Positions 40,808-43,624 of a stretch of 64,000 nt of DNA are shown one piece after another. Source of the stretch: Candidatus Hydrogenedentota bacterium (GTDB taxonomy: Bacteria > Hydrogenedentota > Hydrogenedentia > Hydrogenedentales > JAEUWI01); contig JBJOID010000062.1 in NCBI GenBank assembly GCA_046047315.1, positions 5,896 to 69,895 of the forward strand, given 5' to 3'. The notes beneath the pieces are model-generated. The model searched no databases. It saw only the letters and a list, made by a program, of their open reading frames with translations, and was not told the origin of the DNA. The stretch's first letter is position 1; each line of letters begins with the position of its first letter. The position numbers were made by a program, and so were the translations under genes.

Positions 40808-40935
40808 GGAAAACATCCCCCGCCCTTCGGGCACCCCGTTCAAAGGGGGACACCAAATCGGCGCTTTCGTTTGTCCCTCTTGGAAAGGGGAAGGCACACC
40901 CGAACGTGCCGAGGGGGCGACGGGGGATTTTCTTC
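40808..40935 (+). repeat. MITE-like hairpin repeat element, copy 1
   Basis: Shares GAGGAACATCCCCCG ... GCACCCCG ... TTCAAAGGGGGACACCAA ... GTCCCyCTTkGAAGGGGAAG ... GCACCCGA ... GTGCCGAGGGGGCGA ... GGGGGATkTTCTTC with the element at 43477..43624. Terminal inverted repeats (GArGAACATCCCCC) and an internal inverted pair. Generates the spurious ORF 40794..41483 (GTPFKGGHQ...). Confidence 0.7.
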
Positions 40936-40952
40936 AAGCTTCGATGCAGAGT

Positions 40953-41675
40953 CTACTCCCGAGCCGGCTGAATCAACACGTCGGGAATTTCGACCCCGCG
41001 TGGCAGCAGCAGGGCGTCCACCGTGGCGCGGGCCACGTCCTCTGCACGCAGGTAGCGCTCCGGCTCGTGGGGCAGGCCGCCCTGCTCGTTGAGCTGCCGT
41101 TGCATGGGGGTGTCCACCTTGCCTGGAAAGACCGACACGACCCGCACCCCCTTGGGCCGCAGCTCCTCGCGCAGGGTGTCGGCATAGGCCTTGAGGGCGA
41201 ACTTGCTGGCGCAATATGCGCCGAACTGTGGAAACACCCGCAAGCCCGCTCGGGAATTGATGAAGGCAATCTGGCCGCCGCGCGCGATGAGCGAGGGAGC
41301 AAGGCGTTGCACCAGTTGCCCAGCCGCCAGCACGTTGATGCGCAGCATGGCGTCGAAAGTTGCGCGGTCCGTATCCGCCGACGCGCCGCGCGAGGCCATG
41401 CCCGCCGCGTGCACCAGCACGTCGATGCCGCCATAGGTGTCGAGCGCCCAATCGGCCAGCGCGTTGCAGCCCGCTTCGCTTGAGAGGTCGGCGGCATAAC
41501 TTTGAACGTGGCCGCCCTGGCTGTTGGCGAAATCGGTAAAGGGCTGCAAGCGTGCGGCGTCCCGGCCCGTGGCCGCAATCCATGCGCCCGCCCGGGCCAG
41601 CGCCACGGCCGTGGCCTGCCCAATGCCGCTGCTTGCCCCTGTCACCAGCGCTATCTTGTCCACCAGTTCCGGCAT
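40953..41675 (-). CDS. SDR-family short-chain dehydrogenase/reductase
   Basis: IALVTGASSGIGQATA (TGxxxGIG) and YCASKFAL (YxxxK); start at Met25. Confidence 0.8.
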   Translation of the reverse strand: MPELVDKIALVTGASSGIGQATAVALARAGAWIAATGRDAARLQPFTDFANSQGGHVQSYAADLSSEAGCNALADWALDTYGGIDVLVHAAGMASRGASADTDRATFDAMLRINVLAAGQLVQRLAPSLIARGGQIAFINSRAGLRVFPQFGAYCASKFALKAYADTLREELRPKGVRVVSVFPGKVDTPMQRQLNEQGGLPHEPERYLRAEDVARATVDALLLPRGVEIPDVLIQPARE

Positions 41676-41679
41676 GGGC

Positions 41680-42210
41680 TTAGTCCTCGAAATCCGGGTA
41701 GGCCGCGTCGCGCGGATGGATGACCTTGGGCGCTGCGGGCCATGCAATGCCGAAGGCCGGATCGTTGTAGCGCGCGCCCCGCGCGGCGCCGCCCTCGAAG
41801 TAGGCGCTCATCAGGTAGTCCACGCGCGCGTTCTCAGTCAGGGTAATGAAACCATGGGCGAAGCCCTCGGGGATGTACAACTGCCGGCCGTTCTCCACCG
41901 AAAGCTCGACACCGTAGTGCTGCTTGTAGTTGGGCGAGCCGGGCCGGAGATCGACCACGACATCGTATACCGAGCCAACGGAGCAGCGCACCAGCTTGAT
42001 CTCGGCGTGGGGCGCCGCCTGCCAGTGCATGCCGCGCAGGGTATGGGCGTGGTGGTTCTGGCTCACGTTGTGCTGCACCCACGCGGTGCACAGGCCATGC
42101 GCGGCAAACTCGCGCTGGCAATAGGTGCGGGCGAAATACCCGCGCTCGTCGGCATGGGGCTCCTGCGTAATCAGCCAGGCCCCTTCCAATGGCGTCGCTT
42201 CGAAAATCAC
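41680..42210 (-). CDS. rfbC: dTDP-4-dehydrorhamnose 3,5-epimerase (cupin)
   Basis: FVIFEATPLEGAWLI...DERGYFARTY...LRGMHWQ...KLVRCSVGSVYDVVVDLR...YIPEGFAHGFITL is strong RmlC similarity. Start placed at the GTG at 42210 (AAGGAA SD 8 nt upstream), which matches the RmlC N-terminus. The ORF-track start at 42309 would overlap the divergent gene. Confidence 0.75.
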   Translation of the reverse strand: MIFEATPLEGAWLITQEPHADERGYFARTYCQREFAAHGLCTAWVQHNVSQNHHAHTLRGMHWQAAPHAEIKLVRCSVGSVYDVVVDLRPGSPNYKQHYGVELSVENGRQLYIPEGFAHGFITLTENARVDYLMSAYFEGGAARGARYNDPAFGIAWPAAPKVIHPRDAAYPDFED

Positions 42211-42243
42211 GAAGGGTTCCTTGTCCCGGTTGCGTGGCGCTCC

Positions 42244-42266
42244 TATAATCGCCGTTCGGATTATAC
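42244..42266. promoter_or_regulatory. back-to-back divergent -10 hexamers (TATAAT on each strand)
   Basis: Plus-strand TATAAT at 42244..42249 (about 58 nt before ATG 42308, with a GAGGAG SD). Minus-strand TATAAT at 42266..42261 (about 50 nt before the rfbC GTG). Confidence 0.35.
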
Positions 42267-42307
42267 GCGCGCGGGCCGCGCGGTCCCATGTCCAGAGGAG
42301 AAGCCCC

Positions 42308-43429
42308 ATGCCCGGCCCCAGCCGCCTTGGCCCCCTGTTCGATCGCCATCAACTCGACTTCCATCCCCTGGCCGAACGAGAGGACCGGGTCTTCGTGCAG
42401 GAGGATTTCGTTCCGCTGGACGCAACCCCCGCTCCCTTGCCGGAGAATGCGCGGCGCGCGATTGCCGAGGCGGCGGAACGCCTGCGCTCTGCGCGGGAGA
42501 ATGGGCGTTCCCGCATGCTCACCTTCGGCGCGCACGCCATCAAGAACGGCCTCGGCCCCATCATGGCGCACCTCGTCGAGCAGGGCTGGATCACGCATCT
42601 TGCCACGAACGGCGCCGGCATCATTCACGACTGGGAGTTCGCCTTCCAGGGGCACAGCAGCGAGCATGTGCAGAAGAACGTCGAGCGCGGCCTCTTTGGC
42701 ATGTGGCAGGAAACCGGGTACTACCTGAACCTTGCGCTGAACGTCGGCGCGTATTTGGGCATGGGCTACGGCGAGTCCGTGGGGAGCATGGTGGAAAGCG
42801 AGGGGGTGGAGATACCGGCGCAGGACGATCTTGAACTGGCGGTCACGAATGCGCTGGCGGCGGGTCAACCCGGCCGCGCGGCCGCCGCCGCCGACCTGCT
42901 GCACGTGGTGCGCGATCTCGACATCGCGCCCGGCTGGATGAAGATTCCCCACCCCTTCAAGCACGCCGGACTTCAAGCCGCCGCATGGCGGGCGGGCGTG
43001 CCCTTCACCAGCCACCCCATGTTCGGGCACGACATCATCTACCTGCACCCCATGAACCACGGCGCGGCCATAGGCCGGGCGGCCGAGCGGGACTTCCTCT
43101 CCTTTGTGCAGTCCGTCGCGGGGCTGGATGGCGGCGTCTACCTCAGCGTCGGCAGCGCGGTCATGTCGCCCATGGTCTTCGAGAAAAGCCTCAGCATGGC
43201 CCGAAACGTGGCCAAACAGCGCGGCGAGGACATCACGAATCACCACATGGTCATCGTGGATCTGCAGGAATCGCACTGGGACTGGACCCAGGGCGAGCCC
43301 CCGGAGGACAACCCGGACTACTACCTACGTTTCAACAAGAGCTTCAACCGCATGGGCGGCCACCTGCGCTACCTCTGCGCCGACAACCGGGACTTCCTGC
43401 TGACGCTGATGCGGGAGTTGGAAGGCTAG
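42308..43429 (+). CDS. deoxyhypusine-synthase-like fold protein (function unknown)
   Basis: LTFGAHAIKNGLGPIMAHLVEQGWITHLATNGAGIIHDWEFAF and RAGVPFTSHPMFGHDIIYLH resemble the deoxyhypusine synthase (DHS) blocks around [20 protein letters not shown]. The region aligning to the DHS catalytic GGGVVKHH reads GGVYLSVGSAVM, which has no Lys. ATG verified at 42308. Confidence 0.4.
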   Translation: MPGPSRLGPLFDRHQLDFHPLAEREDRVFVQEDFVPLDATPAPLPENARRAIAEAAERLRSARENGRSRMLTFGAHAIKNGLGPIMAHLVEQGWITHLATNGAGIIHDWEFAFQGHSSEHVQKNVERGLFGMWQETGYYLNLALNVGAYLGMGYGESVGSMVESEGVEIPAQDDLELAVTNALAAGQPGRAAAAADLLHVVRDLDIAPGWMKIPHPFKHAGLQAAAWRAGVPFTSHPMFGHDIIYLHPMNHGAAIGRAAERDFLSFVQSVAGLDGGVYLSVGSAVMSPMVFEKSLSMARNVAKQRGEDITNHHMVIVDLQESHWDWTQGEPPEDNPDYYLRFNKSFNRMGGHLRYLCADNRDFLLTLMRELEG

Positions 43430-43476
43430 GGAGGCATGACGATGAATCGAAAGCGGTGCTCAATGCGAGCTATCAA

Positions 43477-43624
43477 GAGGAACATCCCCCGTCATGCGGC
43501 GGGCACCCCGCCACATGCCACCCCCTTCAAAGGGGGACACCAAGCCAGTGCTACTCATAGGTCCCCCTTTGAAGGGGGAAGCGCACCCGAGTGTGCCGAG
43601 GGGGCGATGGGGGATGTTCTTCGC
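43477..43624 (+). repeat. MITE-like hairpin repeat element, copy 2
   Basis: Same element as 40808..40935. Perfect 18-bp inverted pair CCCCCTTCAAAGGGGGAC (43521..43538) / GTCCCCCTTTGAAGGGGG (43561..43578) with a 22-nt loop. Terminal inverted repeats AACATCCCCCG ... CGATGGGGGATGTT. The right end contains the SD and ATG (43607) of the downstream sulfatase-like gene. Confidence 0.7.

What the first reader, a model, noticed from the sequence alone, without database searches (positions are those of the whole stretch)
40808..43624. Two copies of a 125-145 bp MITE-like, hairpin-rich intergenic element
Copies at 40808..40935 and 43477..43624 are in the same orientation and share a mosaic of conserved blocks. 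They have terminal inverted repeats (GArGAACATCCCCC / GGGGGATkTTCTTC) and an internal inverted pair that is perfect in copy 2 (CCCCCTTCAAAGGGGGAC ... GTCCCCCTTTGAAGGGGG, 18 bp). Each arm of that pair is itself nearly palindromic. Both copies sit in intergenic DNA flanking the rfbC-SDR / DHS-like block, and both produce the same artefactual peptide (GTPFKGGHQ...AEGA) in ORF tracks. In copy 2 the element's right end supplies the Shine-Dalgarno sequence (GAGGGGG) and ATG of the downstream sulfatase-like gene; in copy 1 the same position reads GCGACG with no ATG. It could be a small non-autonomous mobile element, a REP-like structured RNA, or a protein-binding site.
Basis: seen in the sequence. 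Interest (0 to 1): 0.6.

Follow-up and report, generated by a model that had tools for sequence, protein, structure and literature searches.

The report
Paired triplex-type palindromic repeat, BoxC-like
The two ~150-base hairpin-rich stretches are real copies of a selfish-looking intergenic repeat built from two inverted "C-run, C-run, G-run" modules, a design known from E. coli BoxC/triplex-motif elements, and relatives of these modules turn out to flank small DUF559 endonuclease genes in many bacterial phyla.

Summary
There are two same-strand copies, about 75-80% identical, and no others in the 64 kb window. Copy 2 contains a perfect 18-bp inverted pair and holds the sulfatase start codon.

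Each copy is an inverted pair of one module: ACATCCCCC, a spacer, then CCCCCTTCAAAGGGGGAC. This module occurs on 89 of the 120 metagenome contigs fetched (31-66% GC). It is found alone or in inverted pairs. It has the same block order as the BoxC / PIT / "triplex motif" repeats of E. coli (Holder 2015). In the window copies the short spacer is replaced by a small hairpin. About 20% of modules have such a long spacer, and half of those fold.

A close relative (95% identical neighbour protein, same gene order) has copy 1 but lacks copy 2. In that relative the sulfatase starts 12 nt after the upstream gene. Copy 2 is therefore a recent gain that rebuilt the gene's 5' end.

There are no target-site duplications, no transposase and no Rfam hit. 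The peptide is not conserved.

New lead: the same modules form the inverted ends of ~0.5-kb units that encode only a DUF559 (Vsr-like) endonuclease. 18 of 19 DUF559 genes examined, including E. coli ycjD beside the original BoxC, have such modules next to them, against 2% of controls. This suggests a REPIN/RAYT-like system.

The parts
40787..40935 (+). Copy 1 of the repeat (core 40808-40935, plus a ~20-nt left extension shared with copy 2). This is the older, partly decayed copy.
   Evidence: An orthologous copy is present at the same site in relative L175.
40812..40851 (+). Copy 1, left module. It consists of the C-run box AACATCCCCC (40812-40821), the spacer hairpin GCCCTTCGGGCA (40822-40833) and the hairpin CCCCGTTCAAAGGGGGAC (40834-40851).
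   Evidence: the spacer folds, z = -6.7.
40873..40935 (+). Copy 1, right (inverted) module. It consists of the degenerate hairpin GTCCCTCTTGGAAAGGGG (40873-40890), a 31-nt spacer with the GCAC/GTGC hairpin and an extra G5 run (40891-40921), and the G-run box GGGGGATTTTCTTC (40922-40935).
43455..43622 (+). Copy 2 of the repeat (core 43477-43622). This is the younger, near-perfect copy and is absent from the close relative.
43481..43538 (+). Copy 2, left module. It consists of AACATCCCCC (43481-43490), a 30-nt spacer hairpin (43491-43520) and the hairpin CCCCCTTCAAAGGGGGAC (43521-43538).
   Evidence: the spacer folds at -17.2 kcal/mol, z = -4.3.
43539..43560 (+). Copy 2, 22-nt central loop between the two inverted modules.
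43561..43622 (+). Copy 2, right (inverted) module. It consists of GTCCCCCTTTGAAGGGGG (43561-43578), a 30-nt spacer (43579-43608) and GGGGGATGTTCTTC (43609-43622).
43598..43609 (+). Shine-Dalgarno-like GAGGGGG (43598-43604) and the ATG (43607-43609) used as the sulfatase start. Both lie inside copy 2.
   Evidence: An independent gene call starts the 421-aa product here. A signal peptide follows directly.
43430..43438 (+). Relic of the ancestral ribosome-binding site and start codon (GGAGGCATG). It sits at the position where the relative that lacks copy 2 starts its sulfatase.
43607..44872 (+). Sulfatase gene whose 5' end was rebuilt by copy 2.
40953..43429 (.). The block between the two copies: SDR (40953-41675, minus strand), dTDP-sugar isomerase-like gene (41680-42309, minus strand) and DHS-like gene (42308-43429, plus strand). 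This is context only and is not part of the element.

Best explanation
Each copy is a gene-less palindromic repeat made of two inverted copies of one module. The module has a C-run box (ACATCCCCC), a spacer, and a C-run/loop/G-run mini-hairpin (CCCCCTTCAAAGGGGGAC).

Read on the G-rich strand, the common form of the module is TCCCCCTT-TG-AAGGGGGA-TTT-AGGGGGAT. That is a pyrimidine arm, a purine arm, and a mirror-image second purine arm. This is the block order of the 'potential intrastrand triplex' repeats known as BoxC, PIT or TM elements. In the window copies the short second loop is replaced by a small stem-loop, a variant that recurs elsewhere in the family.

Shown here:
- The two copies are homologous.
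- The module family is widespread and multi-copy.
- Inverted pairs are a standard arrangement.
- Copy 1 is old and decaying; it is shared with a relative and evolves faster than the flanking genes.
- Copy 2 is a recent gain that now supplies the ribosome-binding site and start codon of the sulfatase.

Inferred:
- The element has no host function of its own. It spreads as DNA, by a copy or repair process that acts on the folded or cruciform module.
- The protein that drives this is most probably a small DUF559 (Vsr-like PD-(D/E)xK, EDxHD-type) endonuclease. Gene-bearing relatives carry the same modules as their inverted ends.
- The window elements would then be the non-autonomous doublets of such a system, working like REPINs with their RAYT.

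The module family:
- After an exact-pattern scan, most of the 143 hits carry the CATCCCCC box upstream, although the pattern did not require it.
- A later census found 119 modules, and 89 loci spanning 31-66% GC hold the full module.
- Many contigs carry several copies.
- There are 13 convergent and 13 divergent inverted pairs. Partners often differ in spacer type, as in the E. coli type A/B pairs (PMC4666352).
- The spacer is 2-5 nt in 94 modules and 12-40 nt in 24. Half of the long spacers are independent hairpins with unrelated sequences, including both left spacers in the window.

Match to known elements:
- The block order matches TMECO, 5'-CCCTCNCCC N3-6 GGGNGAGGG N3 GGGNGAGGG.

Presence/absence polymorphism:
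- Relative L175 has the same synteny and a 95% identical DHS-like protein. It has copy 1 but only 12 nt between the DHS-like stop and the sulfatase ATG.
- The window keeps the relic ribosome-binding site and ATG.
- Copy 1 orthologues are 70% identical, against 84-90% for the flanking genes. Copy 2 is closer to the relative's copy 1 (79%).

The DUF559 link:
- Six module-bearing metagenome loci have a DUF559 ORF abutting the module.
- In L053 the gene lies between perfect 42-bp inverted repeats made of the module. L091 is similar.
- DUF559 genes found by protein search alone are flanked by lineage-specific versions of the same architecture. These come from Picosynechococcus, Pseudanabaena, Deinococcus (two species), Azospirillum, Sphingomonas, Sphingobium, Methylobacterium, Neisseria, Photobacterium, Synechocystis and E. 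coli.
- An objective detector finds a module within 170 nt of 18 of 19 DUF559 genes, and on both sides of 8. For control positions the figures are 2.3% and 0%.
- E. coli ycjD (DUF559) lies next to fabI (envM), where BoxC was first described. Its stop codon sits in a module loop.
Against: - Only two copies are seen in the source genome, 2.7 kb apart and in the same orientation. A purely local duplication cannot be excluded.
- No DUF559 gene is present in the window, and the rest of the MAG could not be scanned.
- The junctions of copy 2 are not clean. About 40 nt of extra sequence lie to its left, and the sulfatase signal-peptide region has diverged, so the insertion mechanism cannot be read off.
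- DUF559 is not a known transposase, and no activity on such modules has been shown.
- Holder et al. reported no association of TMECO with mobile elements.
- The window modules have loop-2 lengths of 12-31 nt. This is outside the 1-6 nt used to define intrastrand triplex motifs, so triplex formation here is conjecture.
- Six of the 19 DUF559 loci were ascertained through the module itself.
- DUF559 proteins next to this particular module type cluster only weakly (41% identity within the group against 35% to others).
Confidence: 0.55

Rival explanations
1. The element is a locus-specific cis-regulatory structure: an RNA leader, attenuator, mRNA stabiliser or translational control element for the flanking sugar/sulfatase genes.
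For: Both copies fold strongly. Copy 2 sits directly on the sulfatase ribosome-binding site and start codon, so folding would occlude them. Copy 1 lies within a 302-nt gap between two same-strand genes.
Against: Copy 2 is absent from a close relative with the same operon. Relative to their downstream genes, the two copies are in opposite orientations. The orthologous copy 1 diverges faster than the flanking genes and has lost stem pairs without compensation. The same module occurs next to unrelated genes in genomes of 31-66% GC. There is no Rfam match even at E <= 10. There is no terminator-like or promoter-like site in the elements. E. coli PIT elements showed no promoter or terminator activity (PMC4666352 introduction).
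Confidence: 0.1
2. The element is a classical MITE: an internally deleted DDE-transposon derivative, moved in trans by a transposase that recognises the 14-bp terminal inverted repeats.
For: It has the size, terminal inverted repeats, non-coding nature and intergenic location of a MITE, and it is polymorphic between relatives.
Against: No target-site duplication is seen at either copy. The 'terminal repeats' are part of a module that also occurs alone and in the reverse relative order. No transposase-like ORF recurs among 120 module-bearing loci; the only ORF cluster found abutting the module is DUF559. The unit has an asymmetrical left extension.
Confidence: 0.1
3. There is no mobility. Copy 2 arose once by a local duplication or template switch from copy 1, 2.7 kb away. 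The wider 'family' merely reflects convergent G/C-run hairpins.
For: Only two copies are present in 64 kb. They are close together, in the same orientation, and share subfamily-specific blocks (GCACCCGAGTGTGCCGAGGGGGCGA) and a left extension.
Against: The CATCCCCC box co-occurs with the searched hairpin in most hits although the pattern did not require it. This is homology or shared recognition, not convergence. Many contigs carry several dispersed copies. Local origin of copy 2 is compatible with the main explanation.
Confidence: 0.15
4. The element is a member of another known repeat class: REP/BIME with a RAYT transposase, an integron attC site, or a CRISPR-like array.
For: Inverted doublets resemble REPINs. 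The two copies lie in the same orientation around a gene block, which superficially resembles gene cassettes.
Against: There is no GTAG/CTAC REP head and no Y1 transposase nearby. The ends do not fit the attC core sites RYYYAAC / GTTRRRY (sequence). The block between the copies holds three genes on both strands. Spacing is irregular and there are no cas genes.
Confidence: 0.03

Closest known systems
BoxC / PIT (potential intrastrand triplex) / TM-ECO elements of E. coli and other bacteria (Bergler 1992; Hoyne & Maher 2000; Holder et al. 2015, PMC4666352)
   Same: Both have three consecutive G/C-run blocks: a pyrimidine arm, a loop, a purine arm, a short loop and a second purine arm. Both are always intergenic, multi-copy and found on either strand. 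Both are often in inverted pairs whose two members differ in the second loop, and both are linked to local rearrangement.
   Different: The sequence differs (C5/G5 runs with a TTCAAA loop, rather than CCCTCNCCC) and the arms are shorter (5-8 nt against 9). In the window copies the second loop is a 12-31-nt stem-loop, outside the published definition. Triplex formation is untested. The host is a Hydrogenedentota MAG. The DUF559 association is not mentioned in that paper (0 occurrences of ycjD, DUF559 or endonuclease).
REPIN-RAYT systems (REP doublets and their domesticated IS200-like transposase; Bertels & Rainey 2011, PMC3116915)
   Same: In both, the replicating unit would be an inverted doublet of a short hairpin module. 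Both have many gene-less copies, and a single small nuclease-type gene flanked by the same modules in inverted orientation.
   Different: There is no GTAG head. The associated protein is a PD-(D/E)xK DUF559 nuclease, not a Y1 HUH transposase. Mobility has not been demonstrated.
Bacterial MITEs (e.g. Correia, ERIC, RUP, Nezha)
   Same: Both are 100-170 nt, have terminal inverted repeats, are non-coding, fold into long hairpins, can donate promoters or start sites to neighbouring genes, and are polymorphic between strains.
   Different: There is no target-site duplication and no transposase-bearing parent. The ends are autonomous modules that also occur singly.
Free-standing homing endonuclease genes of the EDxHD / Vsr-like class (I-Bth0305I; DUF559, PF04480; PDB 3hrl)
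   Same: The gene-bearing relatives encode only a ~120-140-aa DUF559 protein with the E-DG-H-D catalytic columns intact. In E. coli, ycjD occupies the site where other lineages carry eefRABCD (PMC12817139).
   Different: Classical homing endonuclease genes sit in introns, inteins or phage genes. They are not bounded by dispersed inverted repeats. No target site is known here.

Membership tests
BoxC / PIT / intrastrand triplex motif (ITxF definition, Holder 2015) | Three consecutive blocks: a pyrimidine-rich stem, loop 1, a purine-rich stem, loop 2, and a second purine-rich stem that mirrors the first. Stems are 6-15 nt and loops 1-6 nt. | tested here: inconclusive
   The common form of the module meets the definition: TCCCCCTT / TG / AAGGGGGA / TTT / AGGGGGAT, which gives 8 allowed triads (G*G-C, A*A-T, T*A-T) (definition). 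The four window modules have all three blocks, but loop 2 is 12, 30, 30 and 31 nt, outside the 1-6 nt limit. A detector relaxed to spacers of up to 36 nt finds both halves of copy 2 and one half of copy 1, together with 5 other hits elsewhere in the window, which look like chance matches.
BoxC / PIT / intrastrand triplex motif | The TMECO consensus CCCTCNCCC N3-6 GGGNGAGGG N3 GGGNGAGGG. | tested here: not met
   The window and metagenome modules use C5/G5 runs with a TTCAAA loop. The TMECO form is seen only at E. coli ycjD/fabI. The element is therefore not TMECO itself; at most it is a sister family.
BoxC / PIT / intrastrand triplex motif | Intergenic, multi-copy, on both strands, and frequently in inverted pairs whose members differ in loop 2. 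| tested here: met
   For the family: several copies per contig, and 13 convergent plus 13 divergent pairs, mostly with different spacers. For the source genome, only 2 copies are known.
BoxC / PIT / intrastrand triplex motif | Forms an intrastrand triplex (shown by CD, NMR and footprinting for TMECO). | not testable with these tools
   Only duplex folding could be computed.
BoxC / PIT / intrastrand triplex motif | Associated with local rearrangement between close strains. | tested here: met
   Copy 2 is absent from L175, and the sulfatase 5' end is rebuilt. An extra gene (PF05635) lies next to the sulfatase in L175 only.
MITE | Terminal inverted repeats. | tested here: met
   GArrAACATCCCCC / GGGGGATkTTCTTC.
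MITE | Target-site duplication flanking each copy. | tested here: not met
   No direct repeat is present at either copy. Comparison of the filled and empty sites gives no clean duplication.
MITE | An autonomous parent with the same ends that encodes a transposase. | tested here: not met
   Among 120 module-bearing loci, the only ORF cluster found abutting the module is DUF559 (PF04480), a nuclease fold and not a known transposase.
REP / REPIN-RAYT | A REP hairpin with a conserved GTAG/CTAC head, and a RAYT (Y1 HUH) gene flanked by REPs. | tested here: not met
   There is no GTAG head in the modules. The flanked gene is DUF559. Only the doublet logic is shared.
Integron attC | Core sites R'' RYYYAAC and R' GTTRRRY at the two ends, with single promoterless cassettes between sites. 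| tested here: not met
   The ends read GAGGAAC / GTTCTTC on one strand and GAAGAAC / GTTCCTC on the other. Three genes on both strands lie between the copies.
Any Rfam RNA family | A covariance-model match at or near the gathering score. | tested here: not met
   There are 0 hits at the gathering threshold over the window. At E <= 10 the only hits are chance miRNA and sRNA models (E about 2-3).

The most novel reading that the evidence does not exclude
BoxC/PIT/triplex-motif repeats and their relatives across many phyla (Pseudomonadota, Cyanobacteriota, Deinococcota, and the uncultured carriers of the ACATCCCCC...CCCCCTTCAAAGGGGGAC module, including this Hydrogenedentota MAG) would not be free-floating 'structural' DNA. 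They would be the cis elements of a selfish system whose trans factor is the small DUF559 (YcjD-type, Vsr-like) endonuclease. The gene would sit between inverted modules, and the gene-less inverted doublets, such as the two in this window, would be its non-autonomous copies. This would be a PD-(D/E)xK counterpart of the REPIN-RAYT system. It would assign a function to DUF559/YcjD and an origin to BoxC.
Probability: 0.4. Interest if true: 0.75.

Novelty: new variant of a known kind. Interest (0 to 1): 0.6.

Why it matters
As a locus, this is a clear example of a small repeat rebuilding the 5' end of a gene. The sulfatase now uses a ribosome-binding site and start codon that lie inside the repeat.

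More broadly, BoxC/PIT elements have been known for about 30 years without an origin, a mechanism of spread or a function. DUF559/YcjD is a large family of uncharacterised nucleases. The consistent physical association found here gives a concrete hypothesis that can be tested with E. coli genetics and simple biochemistry. The same module on contigs of 31-66% GC also points to horizontal spread or to a very conserved recognition protein.

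Tried and rejected
- Rfam at gathering and permissive thresholds: nothing.
- BLASTN of the whole copy 2 against plasmids: no match.
- Exact 18-mer scan of 185,579 species genomes: only 5 hits. The one read in full (L007) and the weak profile scores of the rest indicate chance matches, so the host lineage is not represented or has diverged.
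- Viral contig scans with three patterns: chance-level or very few hits.
- Sulfatase homologues at <= 73% identity: no synteny, so useless as empty sites.
- Six more DHS-like orthologues (P0122, P0123, P0125-P0128, P0130): synteny is lost, or no DNA is held. There is therefore no outgroup to polarise the gain or loss of copy 2.
- Literature searches for the sequence strings, the translated peptide and 'small dispersed repeats': nothing relevant.
- Searches for DUF559 and ycjD: no paper links them to repeats.
- Coding hypothesis for the shared peptide: rejected. Differences between the copies are mostly non-synonymous, and the orthologous copy has 1-nt indels.
- Terminator and promoter scan: nothing in the elements.
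- Target-site duplication: a possible ~16-19-nt similarity of both flanks of copy 2 to the empty site was seen (GGAGGCAAGTTCATGATTC), but it is too weak to claim.
- Co-evolution of DUF559 with module type: the first attempt had frame errors. The redone analysis shows only weak clustering.
- Attempt to see whether paired modules keep complementary spacers: they usually do not. This argues that the modules act individually rather than as one long hairpin.

Full report
**1. The observation**

The two stretches align with 80% column identity and a single 18-nt gap. The two longest shared blocks each occur exactly twice in the window, against 0.01 expected. A profile built from both copies finds no third copy in the 64 kb.

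Copy 2 carries a perfect 18-bp inverted pair (43521-43538 / 43561-43578) and folds at -96 kcal/mol (z = -8). Copy 1 is degraded and folds at -62 kcal/mol (z = -3).

Similarity runs about 20 nt further left than reported. Both copies are intergenic. An independent gene call on the same metagenome contig (JGI 3300044681) starts the 421-aa sulfatase at ATG 43607, inside copy 2. The source is a Candidatus Hydrogenedentota MAG, according to the name attached to the identical protein.

**2. Anatomy**

Each copy is an inverted pair of one module. In copy 2 the order is:
- AACATCCCCC
- a 30-nt spacer
- CCCCCTTCAAAGGGGGAC
- a 22-nt loop
- GTCCCCCTTTGAAGGGGG
- a 30-nt spacer
- GGGGGATGTTC

The two spacers are unrelated in sequence. 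Copy 1 has the same plan, with a 12-nt left spacer, a 31-nt right spacer and a decayed right hairpin. Both left spacers are themselves small hairpins.

**3. The module is a widespread family**

In most of the 143 hits, a box (A/T/G)(A/T)CATCCCCC lies a few bases upstream, although the pattern did not ask for it. A later census found 119 modules. 89 loci carry the full module, on contigs of 31-66% GC.

Many contigs hold several copies. The spacer is 2-5 nt in 94 modules, most often TAAAT, and 12-40 nt in 24. Half of the long spacers are stable hairpins with unrelated sequences. The window copies belong to this 'stem-loop in the spacer' subtype.

Modules occur in three arrangements:
- singly;
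- as convergent pairs (13, including copy 2);
- as divergent pairs (13).

Partners usually differ in spacer type. The module, not the long hairpin, is therefore the unit.

**4. What kind of element it is**

Read on the G-rich strand, the common module is TCCCCCTT-TG-AAGGGGGA-TTT-AGGGGGAT. This is a pyrimidine arm, a purine arm and a mirror-image purine arm. It is the design of the BoxC / PIT / 'triplex motif' repeats.

Holder et al. 2015 (PMC4666352) define TMECO as CCCTCNCCC N3-6 GGGNGAGGG N3 GGGNGAGGG. Their findings include:
- 23 intergenic copies in E. coli K-12;
- five inverted pairs, always of a type A with a type B motif;
- triplex formation in vitro;
- no regulatory role;
- association with genome rearrangement;
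- high numbers of G/C-rich motifs in Cyanobacteria and Neisseria.

BLAST of the module against plasmids finds cyanobacterial versions (GATCCCCCTAAATCCCCCTTnnnnAAGGGGGAC) and versions on Enterococcus plasmids.

The window elements fit this family's architecture and behaviour. They do not fit its published sequence consensus, and they do not fit its loop-length limit. I therefore file them as a new variant of that kind, not as TMECO.

**5. Evidence for recent change**

A Logan contig (L175) has a DHS-like protein 95% identical to the window's and the same gene order: SDR, sugar isomerase, DHS-like, sulfatase, sigma-54 regulator. It carries copy 1 at the orthologous site, but has only 12 nt between the DHS-like stop and the sulfatase ATG. 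Copy 2 is absent.

The window still has the ancestral GGAGG-ATG at 43430-43438. About 40 nt of other sequence follow, then the element, and then a different signal peptide.

Three points argue that copy 2 is a gain: its near-perfect state, the relic start site, and the compact junction in the relative. No outgroup could be obtained.

Copy 1 orthologues are only 70% identical, while the flanking genes are 84-90% identical. Copy 2 is closer to the relative's copy 1 (79%) than the true orthologue is. This looks like neutral decay of an old copy and a younger origin for copy 2.

No target-site duplication is evident.

**6. The DUF559 link**

Clustering of all ORFs from the 120 loci gave one cluster that directly abuts the module: six small ORFs. 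All six are Pfam DUF559 (PF04480, E = 1e-19 to 1e-32).

In L053 the gene lies between perfect 42-bp inverted repeats, CTCTTAAGTCCCCCTTTGAAGGGGGATTTAGGGGGATGTTCA. L091 has 32-bp repeats with one mismatch.

The reverse test started from the protein. tblastn against plasmids and mislabelled chromosomes gave DUF559 genes in these organisms:
- Picosynechococcus PCC 7002
- Pseudanabaena
- two Deinococcus species
- Azospirillum
- Sphingomonas
- Sphingobium
- Methylobacterium
- Neisseria gonorrhoeae
- Photobacterium
- Synechocystis
- E. coli

All of them have lineage-specific versions of the same architecture beside the gene. Eight have clear flanking inverted repeats of 23-90 bp.

An objective detector gives 18 of 19 genes with a module within 170 nt. 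That is 12 of the 13 genes found by protein search alone; the 13th scores with a shorter arm length. Eight genes have modules on both sides. For control positions in the same replicons and the window, the figures are 2.3% and 0%.

E. coli ycjD is the DUF559 gene next to fabI (envM), the locus where BoxC was first noticed. Its stop codon lies in a module loop. It is followed by a duplicated 3' end plus module, and then by a canonical BoxC. In other E. coli phylogroups the same site holds eefRABCD instead (PMC12817139).

DUF559 is a Vsr-like PD-(D/E)xK fold. A cyanobacterial genome paper, citing Taylor et al. 2011, places a DUF559-containing gene in the EDxHD homing-endonuclease family. The best solved relative is 3hrl, and the catalytic columns are conserved.

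The Holder paper does not mention ycjD, DUF559 or any endonuclease. No paper in the library makes the link.

**7. Mechanism**

Shown: the elements are gene-less doublets of a dispersed module family, one copy is polymorphic, and it has been co-opted as a translation start.

Inferred: the doublets are non-autonomous copies of a selfish unit whose only protein is the DUF559 nuclease, working like REPINs with their RAYT. The nuclease probably acts on the folded, cruciform or triplex module, and repair or copying spreads the module.

The window holds no DUF559 gene, and the rest of the genome could not be searched. For this genome the link therefore rests on family membership.

**8. Rivals**

- A locus-specific regulatory RNA is unlikely. 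Copy 2 is absent from the relative, the two copies have opposite orientations relative to their downstream genes, decay is uncompensated, there is no Rfam hit and there is no terminator.
- A classical MITE fails on target-site duplication and on the transposase.
- REP/RAYT, attC and CRISPR fail on their defining motifs.
- A one-off local duplication may explain copy 2 but not the family.

**9. Verdict**

The element is a new variant of the known BoxC/PIT/TM kind, in a phylum where it has not been described. The DUF559 association is the most interesting outcome and deserves a proper census and a biochemical test.

Noticed in passing
window 43436-44872: A 478-aa ORF starts at the relic ATG 43436 and runs in frame through the whole of copy 2 into the sulfatase. 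The 18-nt difference between the copies is also a multiple of three. The peptide is not conserved between copies, so this looks accidental. It does mean the older start could still give an N-terminally extended protein.
   Followed up: partly
L175 3894-4475 (relative of the window; window equivalent about 44873-44881): The close relative has an extra minus-strand gene (PF05635, 23S rRNA-intervening-sequence protein family) between the sulfatase and the sigma-54 response regulator. The window lacks it. This is a second indel polymorphism right next to the repeat.
   Followed up: no
L165 505-951 and L166 583-1050 (Synechocystis sp. B12 plasmids): The DUF559 ORFs here appear to be inserted inside defence-type genes (BREX PglX methyltransferase, DUF1156). 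The host reading frame continues on both sides and triplex-type modules sit at the junctions. This is possibly an intein- or intron-like insertion, or a gene-disrupting one.
   Followed up: no
L192 (E. coli K-12 NC_000913.3 1351039-1351407, the fabI-ycjD gap): Downstream of ycjD there is a diverged tandem duplicate of the gene's last ~45 nt plus its module, followed by a canonical BoxC. The unit 'gene 3' end plus module' has itself been copied.
   Followed up: partly
L193 19986-20327 and L187 486-824 (Deinococcus proteolyticus and Deinococcus sp. NW-56 plasmids): 88% identical DUF559 genes with flanking modules sit inside the 4-hydroxyphenylacetate (hpa) catabolic cluster in both species, but between different neighbouring genes.
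   Followed up: no
L133 4576-4689 and L084 1-160 (metagenome contigs): The hairpin part of the module (CCCCTTCAAAGGGGGAC plus ~12-24 nt) occurs as short tandem arrays with periods of 29 and 41 nt. Part of the module can therefore amplify head-to-tail.
   Followed up: no
L140 352-1885 and contigs of sample Ga0209918 (L047, L052, L068, L095, and others): One community member carries a longer conserved version (AACGCTnnGGTCATCCCCC...GGGGGACTTTTACGAATTT) in many copies. Three of them are in the same orientation within 1.5 kb.
   Followed up: no
L163 1501-1543 (Enterococcus faecalis V583 pTEF1 and ~30 related plasmids): A module-like sequence (ACAACCCCCTAAATCCCCCAACAAAACTTGGGGGACTTAAGA) is conserved in the gap between a TraM-recognition-domain gene and the replication-relaxation gene. 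It is possibly part of the transfer origin region.
   Followed up: no
window 60682-61724: Four copies of a 47-nt direct repeat (64-79% identical to the reference copy) occur at irregular spacing. They look like a repeated coding motif (GxxVAVGD-type) inside a large ORF.
   Followed up: no
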